The notes beneath the pieces are model-generated. The model was not told the DNA's origin, did no database searches, and worked only from the letters and a program-made list of their open reading frames with translations. Position numbers and translations under genes: made by a program. A stretch of DNA of 62,979 bases, filler included, from Kipferlia bialata (lineage: Eukaryota), in the NCBI GenBank assembly GCA_003568945.1. It is 6 parts of 6 records of this genome, joined end to end, with 100 filler letters (N's around TTAATTAATTAA, not from the genome) between each part and the next. Parts side by side here need not be neighbours in the genome. Positions count along the whole stretch, not along the records: positions 25,086 to 39,163 come from BDIP01000864.1; 5 more parts are not named here. The stretch is one strand, 5' to 3'. Each line of letters starts with the position of its first letter. Position 1 is the stretch's first letter. Of the stretch, positions 28,401 through 31,400 are shown piece after piece.

Positions 28401-31400
28401 TCGATGTCAGTGGGAATGGCATCTGGAGGGCAGGCACAAGGACAGGGCTAGAGGGGGTGTGCACAACCTACAATGTAAGAATGTGTGACAGACTCTGTAT
28501 CGTCAGAATCACTAGCATGAAAGCCTGAATATCTGTATGTGGTAAACCTTGACCACTGACCTACGTGGATGTATAACAGTATACTATTTGTCAGTGGCAT
28601 TCACTACATCTCTACTCTGTACCTGATTATTGAAGTATCTCACTCTGTATATATATATATGTATACCTTGAGCACTGGCCTAGGCTGCACATCCATGGTC
28701 ACACCCTCCAGGGGGACAACACCTGGGGTAAGACACATTCATATTATATATATGTATATATACATATACAGTGTATGTACTATACTGATGTACATCCATG
28801 GTCACACCCTCCAGGGGGACAACGCCTCGAATGAGAGACGTATATGAGACTGACTATCTACTATTTGAATTTAGAATACTGTTTGCAGAACCTTGCTCTC
28901 TCAGTAACCCATCCACTACGAGTGTGATGGCTGTCCTAGTGAGTCCACCAGCGTCTAGGCCCCTCTCACCCTGAAACACAACCTAGGTATCAGAACGATA
29001 TAGAAAGCGTTTGCATATAGCTCGCCCATAAACACAACCTAGGGGTCACAATACTGTATGAGTATATATGTATAGTGTATATAGTATATACGTAAGTGTG
29101 AATATGCATCAAGGCCCTTCCCGCCCTGGAACATACGCGGGAGACGTTACATATATGTGTATGAATACAAGTTAGCTATGGTTGAAATGAACAGAGAGGC
29201 TTAGATAATACAATCGAATAATGGTTCCATACCTTCAGTCTGTGCTTGGCTGGTGACAGGTGGACACAGGCCTCTAGTCCTGGGTATGAGTACAGATAAG
29301 AATAGAAATGCAAAGAGGTATAGAGATAGTATGGATTCGCCCGCATACGAACATAGTTCTGTGTAAATATACATATATGTATTATTAGAATATGTATACA
29401 GAGGTACCTGACTGCAGAGGCATCAACCTTGACACAGACACCCTCCCCACTCCCTTTGGTGCATGTGCTACATCATGCACTGCATATGTATAGATTATAT
29501 GAATAGTACATACATACATACATACCTGATTGCAGAGGCATCAGCCTTGACACCGACACTCTTCCTACCCCCTTGGGTGCATGTGCCACTGCATGCACTG
29601 CATATAGTAGTAGCATACACATATATATGAATATGAGATATCTATATACACTCACCTGACTGTAATGGCATCAGCCTACTGACTGACACTCTTCCTACAC
29701 CCTTTGGGGCATGTGCCACTGCATGCACTGCTGCTGCTAGTGGCACATGACTGTGTGGGGTGGGTGGCCTAGGGGCAGGGGTCGGGGCACCAGAGAGAAG
29801 GCCAAGGATCCTAACGTCAGAGGATATAGATCAAAAACTACGCGATGAGAAATGTACCTATCTGTCTGTGCGAATGACAGCTCTCTGTCCCCCAGTGTAG
29901 AGACTACGGCTAGTAGAGGTGCGGGTATAGACAGTTCGTCAGGGAGAGAGAAGGAGGATGGACCATTGATGAAGGACCTGACAACGGCGTGGACAGTGTC
30001 AGCGGAGACGCCATCCTGTGGTGAGAGATACGAACACACAATCTATATACATATATATGTACCTGTGAATAGAGGCCTAGCTCTAAGAGTAGGACGCTAT
30101 AGGCTAGTGCCAGTCTGTATGGCATGTCTGCCCTGATGTGCATGGCCATGCCGTAGATGTCGGTCACGCCACACAATGGTGGGGGTAGCAACAGCCTAGA
30201 ATCAGTACTGTAAGTATTTATGATATTTGTATATTGGACAAGATTTATGTATTAGTATCATGATGTGCATGGCCATGCCATAGATATCGGAGACACCGCA
30301 TAGAGGTGGTGGAAGGAGAAGCCTAGTATGAGTACTATACATACTCGACATATATAGTATATATACTATATATATCTGATGTGCATGGCCATGCCATAGA
30401 TGTCAGTCACACCGCATAGAGGTGGAGGTAGCAACAGTCTATAGTTAGAAAATGACGTATATAGTGTATATACTATATATATGTATAAGTATGATGATGT
30501 GCATGGTCATGCCATAGATGTCAGACACACCGCATAAAGGGGGTGGTAGTAGCAACCTACAGTTAGGGAATATGTATATACAACGTATAAATAACAATAC
30601 ATATGTATAAGTATGATGATGTGCATGGTCATGCTATTGATGTCAGACACGCCAGAGAGAAGATACAGAGGGATTGGAAGGATACCTGCTATTTGTACAA
30701 TACTAGTGTATATATACACCATCCTTGTATGTGTATGAGTCAGTTTTGAGTATCTTATGTACATAGGCATTCAAACCTTGTGGGTGTGATGGAGAGTGGT
30801 CGCATCGACCCCAGACATGCATCAGCTAGGGTAGGGGGGTCGCCAGTGAAGCCTGATATAAGAGTGTGGATACGTTGAATAGGCGTTGCATATATGACAA
30901 GGGGACTAGCAAATCCTTTCGACACCCTAAGGGAAGCCATAAAGGATAGTACTGTGTTTGAGTATGATATATATCATACATGACAATGGTACCTAAGTGA
31001 TGACACCCCTGCACCTTGATCTGCTTGTATGAAGTCACAGGAGAGTGCATAGTATATATATAGTGCAGTGCTCTGAGATTCATGAGTCTGCATGTAACTA
31101 TCCATTCATAGTGTAACACACTATGGTACACCACATATTGTACTATAGGTGAAGAGTGATTACTATTAAGCCATCTCTACCTGAGTCTGCCTGTATGTGG
31201 TCACAGGACAGCACTATGTGCATTAATATAGCATAGTGTATATAATATATATATATGGCATATACATAGTATAGTCCATATACCTGCGTCTGCCTGTATG
31301 TAGTCACATGACATCATGTGCAGGAGACCATCAAGGCCTAGGTGGTGAGAAGGAGAAGATAGATATGTTGGGCATTGAATGGAGAGAGAGTATCCCAATA

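What the first reader, a model, noticed from the sequence alone, without database searches (positions are those of the whole stretch)
29408..29731. Triplicated 25-codon exon end with heavily diverged synonymous sites, including an AGT/TCA serine switch
Seen (minus strand): live 29656-29731 versus echo 29526-29601 shows 12 nucleotide differences in 9 codons, all synonymous (gcc/gca, cca/ccc, ggt/ggg, tca/tcg, gtc/gtg, agt/tca, cca/cct, tta/ctg, cag/caa). Echo 29408-29483 has about 12 synonymously changed codons and one replacement (A>D). Each copy keeps its GT donor. Inference: this much silent change implies long separate histories as coding DNA. A phase-compatible CAG at the echo start would also allow 72-nt in-frame inclusion.
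Basis: seen in the sequence. Interest (0 to 1): 0.85.

Follow-up and report, generated by a model that had tools for sequence, protein, structure and literature searches.

The report
Fossil exon alleles stacked in introns
In the free-living protist Kipferlia, exon ends are repeated inside the neighbouring introns with mostly silent codon changes; the copies are likely dead pieces captured from strongly diverged versions of the same chromosome, which would make these introns an archive of lost alleles.

Summary
The last 76 nt of exon 24 of a Kipferlia bialata gene (KIPB_004161) recur twice in the next intron, each copy with its GT. The differences are 12 of 12 and 15 of 17 synonymous. It is not a one-off. 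In four annotated genes, 33 of 88 introns hold 58 such echoes. All span a splice junction: exon end plus donor downstream, or acceptor plus exon start upstream. Together they show 141 synonymous and 67 non-synonymous differences (pN/pS 0.16; a copy dead from birth gives 0.53 or more in simulation). The two copies are probably not translated: their CAG is exon-derived, scores like a decoy, and the annotation skips them. No RNA could be laid, so this is untested. Best reading: each echo was born already diverged, captured from a homologous chromosome about 30% different at silent sites, then multiplied by unequal exchange and hidden by outer splice-site choice. The donor homologue was not found at this locus. 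Junction-spanning repeats with silent splice sites are known (human F7 intron 7); dead copies with a coding signature at this density were not found in 10 literature searches.

The parts
29656..29810 (-). Live exon 24 of KIPB_004161 (155 nt); its last 76 nt (29731-29656) are the repeated part; donor GTGAGT
   Evidence: Exact spliced mapping of the annotated protein P0002
29602..29655 (-). 54-nt intronic spacer after the live donor; no consensus branch point or acceptor of its own
29526..29601 (-). Echo 1: 76-nt copy of the exon end, 12 synonymous and 0 non-synonymous differences, followed by GTATGT
29484..29525 (-). 42-nt intronic spacer; ends in the same ATAT junction as the first spacer
29408..29483 (-). 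Echo 2: 76-nt copy, 15 synonymous and 2 non-synonymous differences (Ala>Asp), followed by GTACCT; shares five synonymous codons with echo 1 against the live copy
29280..29407 (-). Rest of intron 24 (128 nt) ending in a consensus acceptor (CTCAT-ACC-CAG)
29233..29279 (-). Exon 25, in frame with exon 24
25461..38945 (-). Host gene KIPB_004161 (GIQ82931.1), 38 exons, 1250 aa, partial; weak HECT match at the C-terminus (E 0.39, below Pfam's cut-off); 41 echoes in 23 of its 37 introns
30261..30654 (-). Mirror-image case: four copies of the START of exon 22 in intron 21; three keep a consensus acceptor, none has a donor, all end at nt 62-63 of the exon; 25 synonymous and 10 non-synonymous differences
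9900..10290 (-). Four donor-side echoes of one exon in an ankyrin gene on another scaffold (10 of 11 differences synonymous; implied mini-exons of 38 or 32 nt are out of frame)
42065..42199 (-). Two 30-nt acceptor-side echoes in KIPB_004163 that are followed by GT: possible in-frame mini-exons, the best cases for the translated-copy rival

Best explanation
The two copies lie inside intron 24 and are likely untranslated pieces of the same exon captured from homologous chromosomes that had already diverged by roughly 30% at silent sites, so their coding signature would predate their capture. Steps. (1) Shown: a unit of about 115 nt, made of an exon end plus donor (or acceptor plus exon start) and most of an intron, is repeated in tandem, always in this polarity. 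(2) Shown: the exon-like part differs from the live exon mostly at silent sites, far more than a dead copy could. (3) Inferred: between strongly diverged homologues only the short exons (median 76 nt) can pair. A break in an intron is repaired by one end invading the homologue through an exon and copying across its intron into the next exon; the other end, blocked by non-matching intron DNA, is joined by microhomology instead of annealing. This leaves resident exon end, intron stub, foreign exon end, foreign intron. (4) Inferred: once one echo exists, misaligned exchange between an echo and a homologue's live exon adds further units that share the first junction and are refreshed from live sequence next to the splice site. 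(5) Inferred: only arrangements in which the copy lacks its partner site survive, because the spliceosome uses the first donor and the last acceptor (cross-exon pairing). The echo then decays with an A/T bias. The echoes need have no function.
For: Polarity 58 of 58 echoes; inverted copies 1 of 176 comparisons. pS 0.298, pN 0.046, ratio 0.16; P = 1.7e-16 against dead-from-birth, 4e-11 without the finding; simulation with the same detector gives ratios of 0.53-0.90. In 14 arrays the nearest echo has pN 0.023 and the farthest 0.076 (Fisher P 8e-4) while pS is the same (0.333, 0.336): silent divergence looks present at birth. Non-synonymous differences move from G/C to A/T (39 to 19 G+C of 67), synonymous ones do not (60 to 63 of 131). 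Echoes of one array end at the same exon offset (76/76; 62/63/62/62; 41/40/41/41; 35/35; 30/30) and carry private synonymous codons (21 synonymous, 15 not). 11 of 19 echoes that are at least 93% identical to the live exon have intron flanks no more alike than unrelated introns. Lengths are not enriched for multiples of three (11 of 43). One of four genes has a second annotated copy on another scaffold that matches the window's 10 exons residue for residue. K. bialata is listed with no Ku70 and no Rad51A but with Dmc1, Rad52 and Pol theta (PMC8516963 section 8 and Supplementary Data 2); DMC1 tolerates mismatches (PMC7809202 abstract); HR that ends without second-end homology is finished by microhomology joining (PMC5104497 abstract); in a hypervariable fungus crossovers concentrate in exons (PMC4209137 abstract).
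Against: No donor was seen. X1 holds no second contig for exons 23-25 at 80% likeness or more (contigs drop variants), the protein search found one protein only, three of four genes are single-member clusters, and many BUSCO genes are single in the published table (part 1 of 4). So the strain is not visibly a wide hybrid now. The silent divergence required (0.3 raw; 0.6-0.75 at this exon) exceeds the record within-species value of 0.20 (PMC4576712 abstract), so it needs hybridisation between lineages or ancient allele divergence, neither shown for Kipferlia. The near-versus-far difference is not significant array by array (7 up, 3 down, 4 ties; Wilcoxon P 0.11), and echoes of an array share ancestry, so pooled P values overstate. 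Echoes share 11 synonymous codons against the live copy, which a random draw of alleles does not predict. The intron stub is as long as a whole echo-free intron (median 75 versus 83 nt) and 7 of 52 resemble the other end of their intron, more than random breaks predict. Skipping rests on an AUGUSTUS model and on site scores, not on reads.
Confidence: 0.55

Rival explanations
1. The copies are, or were until recently, real exons: in-frame tandem duplicates that were translated (constitutively or alternatively), kept under purifying selection in place, and have since lost or weakened one splice site.
For: At this locus inclusion of 72 nt is in frame and stop-free for one or both copies; echo 1 has no replacement in 24 codons; the stub is about one intron long and 7 of 52 stubs resemble the far end of their intron (P 0.014); two 30-nt echoes in KIPB_004163 have both AG and GT; a few real acceptors are as weak as echo 1's (2 of 88).
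Against: The annotated protein has one copy. Echo lengths are not enriched for multiples of three (11 of 43); the four-copy ankyrin array would be out of frame. Most echoes have no partner site. Whole-exon duplication followed by loss of either end would give both polarities; 58 of 58 have one. The silent bias holds without this locus (P 4e-11).
Confidence: 0.2
2. Snapshots: ordinary local duplications of the resident exon, in a genome where silent sites of live exons change several times faster than dead intronic DNA, so that echoes preserve earlier states of the live exon.
For: Echoes share 11 synonymous and 1 non-synonymous codon against the live copy; the ankyrin array looks time-ordered; no second allele is needed.
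Against: pS should rise with age as pN does; it does not (43 of 129 near, 37 of 110 far). The nearest echoes have private synonymous changes (8 synonymous, 3 not). Intron DNA beside the echoes diverges fast, not slowly. It needs about a six-fold rate gap with no known cause.
Confidence: 0.1
3. The donor was a paralogue or an old duplicated chromosome (ectopic gene conversion after segmental or whole-genome duplication), since lost or not assembled, rather than an allele.
For: It explains divergence above any known allelic diversity; one of four genes has a near-identical second copy on another scaffold.
Against: No paralogue for the host exon in the protein search or in X1 contigs; up to five distinct versions per exon need several donors; intron position and phase match exactly in the echoes that keep their site.
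Confidence: 0.1
4. Ordinary neutral tandem duplications of the resident DNA, or an assembly artefact.
For: Junction-spanning duplications are known (F7 intron 7) and selection alone explains the polarity; the unit size (median 115 nt) is near short-read length.
Against: Neutral copies give pN/pS of 0.53 or more, observed 0.16. X1 holds 98% of the sampled 31-letter words of 27000-33000 and one contig spans the locus without a difference. Copies differ by 16-22% here, which assemblers do not invent.
Confidence: 0.05

Closest known systems
Human F7 intron 7 37-bp VNTR with silent 5' pseudo-sites (PMC1557585, abstract read)
   Same: A repeat unit spans the exon-intron border; intact donor copies follow the authentic one and only the most upstream is used.
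   Different: F7 is one minisatellite with identical sites. Here units are about 115 nt, occur on both donor and acceptor sides in 33 of 88 introns, have diverged intron parts, and their exon parts differ mostly at silent sites.
Tandem duplicated (mutually exclusive or constitutive) exons (general knowledge, recalled)
   Same: Neighbouring copies of coding sequence with mainly synonymous divergence; at this locus the frame is compatible.
   Different: Those are whole exons with both sites. These are partial and have one site only.
Intron gain by tandem genomic duplication of a proto-splice site (PMC3265369 and PMC2891723, abstracts read)
   Same: Local duplication of exonic sequence ends up inside an intron and leaves the mRNA unchanged.
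   Different: There the duplication makes a new intron from identical copies. Here an existing intron is lengthened, no new junction appears, and the copy was coding elsewhere before.
[quoted passage not shown]
   Same: The proposed way of birth: copying from a homologous template with a non-homologous second junction gives a duplication.
   Different: Shown there in mammalian reporter cells with a sister template and kilobase tracts. Here it is inferred, with tracts of about 100 nt and a strongly diverged homologue.
Hypervariable Schizophyllum commune (PMC4576712, PMC4209137, abstracts read)
   Same: Recombination between very divergent alleles is confined to conserved exons.
   Different: Silent diversity there is 0.20 and the abstracts report no such duplications; the echoes imply about 0.3.

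Membership tests
Tandem duplicated exons (included in mRNA) | Each copy has its own acceptor with branch point and its own donor | tested here: not met
   Donors present; CAGs are exon-derived and score -0.8 and -2.1, matched or undercut by 2 of 88 and 0 of 88 real acceptors
Tandem duplicated exons (included in mRNA) | Inclusion keeps the reading frame | tested here: met
   72 nt, no stops with one or both copies; not so for echoes generally (11 of 43 lengths divisible by three)
Tandem duplicated exons (included in mRNA) | Copies appear in transcripts | tested here: inconclusive
   No RNA holder listed; X2 gave no laid contig; the annotation skips them
F7-IVS7-type junction-spanning repeat with pseudo-sites | Repeat unit spans the exon-intron border and repeats the splice site | tested here: met
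   58 of 58 polar; 24 of 28 donor-side echoes keep GT; 20 of 30 acceptor-side echoes keep AG with a branch-point score within the upper 90% of real sites
F7-IVS7-type junction-spanning repeat with pseudo-sites | Only the outer site is used | tested here: inconclusive
   Direct use of either echo donor retains the stub and gives a stop at codon 55 of the joined piece; annotation uses the outer site; no RNA
F7-IVS7-type junction-spanning repeat with pseudo-sites | Units are near-identical minisatellite copies | tested here: not met
   Exon parts 78-84% identical here with silent bias; intron flanks above background in only 16 of 44 echoes
Intron gain by tandem genomic duplication | A duplicated AG/GT proto-splice site creates a new intron between the copies | tested here: not met
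   The annotated junction uses the original donor and acceptor; the repeated site is the existing donor
Duplication by one-sided homologous repair from a diverged homologue | The copied tract matches an identifiable homologous template | tested here: inconclusive
   No template at this locus; a second copy of the ankyrin gene exists but its DNA could not be fetched
Duplication by one-sided homologous repair from a diverged homologue | Microhomology or inserted bases at the non-homologous junction | not testable with these tools
   Needs the pre-duplication alleles; junctions inspected only by eye
Duplication by one-sided homologous repair from a diverged homologue | Copy differs from the resident as two coding alleles differ | tested here: met
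   141 synonymous, 67 non-synonymous differences; codon positions 1/2/3 in the host gene 37/16/123

The most novel reading that the evidence does not exclude
Kipferlia's introns grow by stacking fragments of other alleles. Lacking Ku and Rad51A, it repairs breaks with mismatch-tolerant Dmc1 off homologues so divergent (about 0.3 at silent sites, above the known within-species record) that only exons pair; each failed second-end capture leaves a splice-junction copy. One genome would then hold tens of thousands of dated samples of lost alleles, about 40% of intron DNA would come from this process, and a metamonad with a reduced spliceosome would be shown to pick splice sites across exons, ignoring intact nearer acceptors and donors.
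Probability: 0.4. Interest if true: 0.9.

Novelty: new variant of a known kind. Interest (0 to 1): 0.76.

Why it matters
Dead DNA with a strong protein-coding signature needs explaining, and here it fills 6,808 of 16,930 intron bases in the four genes examined. If the homologue model holds, a single genome records recombination between very distant alleles, a new route of intron lengthening and intron replacement, in a lineage whose nearest well-known relatives (Giardia, Spironucleus) lost almost all introns. It also makes two open questions testable: what repair by Dmc1 without Rad51A and Ku does to a genome, and whether a small protist spliceosome pairs sites across exons (20 of 30 acceptor-side echoes keep a good acceptor that must be ignored). 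In practice, echoes mislead gene prediction: the annotated start of KIPB_004155 is read from one.

Tried and rejected
No whole genome is held for this window, so the class could be counted only in the window. Sequencing runs: no RNA holder listed; X2 (RNA is a guess) gave no laid contig on 29205-30030, which is no evidence on expression. The lay covered only 826 bases, so the acceptor-side array and the ankyrin locus were not examined in reads. Metagenome scan with the host protein: 61 pattern matches, none confirmed. Pfam gave only a sub-threshold HECT match, so the protein's function is not settled. The representatives search served only to fetch one more gene model; the other 149 listed hits were not examined. 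In one search a low-complexity filter wrongly dropped echo 2 (40 instead of 41 echoes); one search repeats the count without the filter and is the one cited. One search ended with a saving error after printing its list; it was used only to show echoes in all six scaffold pieces, frames not assigned. One gene (KIPB_004165) has only 3 echoes in 34 introns with one difference, non-synonymous, so it gives no support for the silent bias. Echoes offset from the splice site were left out of the flank test (44 of 58 used) and the junction test (52 of 58). Rejected by argument: selection on echoes through frequent collapse onto the live exon (would also erase silent differences); target-site duplication or cDNA insertion (copies identical at birth, and echoes keep intron sequence); splicing from inside the live exon to the echo's CAG (loses one base). 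The BUSCO table could not separate fragments from alleles. Ten paper searches found no description of this pattern; the library lacks most subscription journals, bioRxiv supplements are closed, and I did not open the genome paper's supplements.

Full report
Observation. Echo 1 differs from the live copy at 12 bases, all synonymous; echo 2 at 17, of which 15 are synonymous. Both exceed random change (P about 1e-7) and the stricter model in which a dead copy mutates everywhere while the live exon changes only at silent sites (P 2.7e-5 and 1.0e-4). One contig of DNA run X1 spans the locus without a difference; X1 may be the source of this DNA.

Setting. The exon's peptide matches one protein, Kipferlia bialata KIPB_004161. 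The annotated protein holds one copy of the peptide and maps exactly onto 38 exons at 38945-25461. The window is six scaffold pieces joined by linkers. The genome paper reports 124,912 GT-AG introns, AUGUSTUS models built with transcript hints, and two k-mer peaks read as diploidy (PMC5874029, parts 1-3 of 6 read); a term search of its text finds no 'duplicat', 'allel' or 'heterozyg'.

Are the copies exons? Real acceptors here have a branch point fixed next to the AG: 34 of 37 match YTNAY-N2-4-YAG, against 30 of 479 other intronic AGs. The CAG at each echo start is copied exon sequence and lacks this motif; in a leave-one-out score only 2 of 88 and 0 of 88 real acceptors are as weak. Inclusion would be in frame, so it cannot be excluded without RNA, and none could be laid. 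Using an echo's donor directly gives a stop.

The class. Comparing every intron with its two flanking exons found 41 echoes in 23 of 37 introns of this gene, with 0 of 148 hits for non-adjacent exons. Three more annotated genes gave 10 echoes in 4 of 9 introns, 3 in 3 of 34, and 4 in 3 of 8; similar pairs occur in all six scaffold pieces. All 58 have one polarity: exon end plus donor lies downstream, acceptor plus exon start lies upstream; inverted copies are 1 of 176. 24 of 28 donor-side echoes keep GT and 20 of 30 acceptor-side echoes keep a good acceptor. Units are 69-203 nt, median 115; echo-free introns have a median of 83 nt, echo-bearing ones 269. Echo units make up 6,808 of 16,930 intron bases. 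Density is very uneven between genes, so genome-wide numbers are only an extrapolation.

The anomaly. Pooled, there are 141 synonymous differences on 473 sites and 67 non-synonymous on 1,447 (pN/pS 0.16). Simulated dead-from-birth copies passed through the same detector give 0.53-0.90, with or without A/T bias. So sequence that mostly cannot be an exon today was under protein-level selection for most of its divergence from the live copy.

Timing. In the 14 introns with two or more echoes of one exon, the nearest has pN 0.023 and the farthest 0.076 (9 of 390 versus 26 of 341 sites, Fisher P 8e-4) while pS is unchanged. Array by array the trend is weaker (7 up, 3 down, 4 ties, P 0.11). Non-synonymous differences shift towards A/T, as decay in an A/T-rich intron would; synonymous ones do not. 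Members of an array end at the same exon offset, which points to repeated unequal exchange from one original junction, yet each has private silent changes. Intron flanks are detectably related in 16 of 44 echoes, and not in 11 of 19 whose exon part is at least 93% identical. A recent copy of resident DNA would be alike on both sides of the splice site. Together this fits two phases: long divergence as coding DNA on another chromosome, then a short dead phase.

Mechanism (inferred). Between homologues whose introns no longer align, only exons of about 76 nt can pair. One-ended invasion, copying across the homologue's intron, and microhomology joining of the other end give exactly these two polar products. 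Published gene inventories fit: K. bialata is listed without Ku70 and Rad51A and with Dmc1, Rad52 and Pol theta (PMC8516963: passages, section 8 and rows of Supplementary Data 2; one scanned supplement could not be read). DMC1 is mismatch-tolerant (PMC7809202 abstract); HR ending without second-end homology uses microhomology (PMC5104497 abstract); crossovers in a hypervariable fungus fall in exons (PMC4209137 abstract). Survival requires the first donor and last acceptor to be used, as cross-exon pairing would do (definition in PMC3488318, passages), in a species with 87 of 174 spliceosomal proteins and no snRNA candidates found (PMC6679479, passages).

Against it. No donor allele is visible at this locus, three of four genes are single in the protein collection, and the divergence needed exceeds the 0.20 record (PMC4576712 abstract). 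The one positive hint is a second annotated copy of the ankyrin gene on a different scaffold whose protein matches the window's 10 exons exactly; its DNA could not be fetched. Echoes sharing codons against the live copy (11 synonymous) and stubs of nearly whole-intron length are not fully explained and keep the snapshot and once-translated rivals alive.

Comparison. Intron gain by tandem duplication (PMC3265369, PMC2891723 abstracts) makes new introns from identical copies and fails the test here. Ten searches of the held library (listings seen) returned no report of intronic junction copies with synonymous-biased divergence, in Kipferlia or elsewhere.

Verdict. Real, far beyond chance, part of a window-wide class. 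The geometry is a known kind; the coding signature in dead copies, the density and the implied donor are not. Interest 0.76.

Noticed in passing
window 7619-10805 (minus): The ankyrin gene KIPB_004155 has a second annotated copy, KIPB_000607, on a 33,584-nt contig; its protein matches the window's 10 exons residue for residue. Allele or recent duplicate; the best place to measure divergence between homologues.
   Followed up: partly
window 10720-10775 (minus): The annotated start of KIPB_004155 (MCGRVLRHC) appears to be read out of frame from an echo at the scaffold edge, and the model skips a real exon (10460-10395) that the second copy includes: echoes mislead gene prediction.
   Followed up: partly
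window 42065-42094 and 42170-42199 (minus): Two 30-nt acceptor-side echoes followed directly by GT and a sequence like the start of the same intron: possible in-frame mini-exons that the annotation skips.
   Followed up: partly
window 46191-46420 (plus): After a 16-nt acceptor-side echo the sequence resembles the 5' start of the same intron with its GT changed; the unit is a whole intron plus an exon start.
   Followed up: partly
window 44902-51529 (plus): KIPB_004165 has only 3 short echoes in 34 introns (median 82 nt), against 23 of 37 in KIPB_004161: echo density varies strongly between loci.
   Followed up: no
whole window, 88 annotated introns: The branch point sits at a fixed 2-4 nt from the YAG (consensus CT-N-AC), recalling the fused branch-point/acceptor motif of Giardia and Trichomonas (comparison from memory).
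   Followed up: partly
window 30322-30495 and many other introns: TA-rich intron segments are often short palindromes (for example in the spacers of the exon 22 array), as snap-back synthesis or slippage would make.
   Followed up: no
window 59421-59598 (minus) and 62351-62518 (plus): Echoes 43 of 43 and 48 of 49 identical to the live copy whose intron flanks look unrelated a few bases past the splice site.
   Followed up: partly
window 28892-28982 (minus): The host protein has a GERGLDAGGL stretch like the start of a HECT domain (recalled motif) and a C-terminal weak Pfam HECT match (E 0.39): probably a very divergent HECT ubiquitin ligase.
   Followed up: partly
window 29621-29658: A second X1 contig (379 nt) matches 38 nt of the intron start with 6 differences and then runs on unlike: probably a similar intron start elsewhere in the genome.
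   Followed up: no
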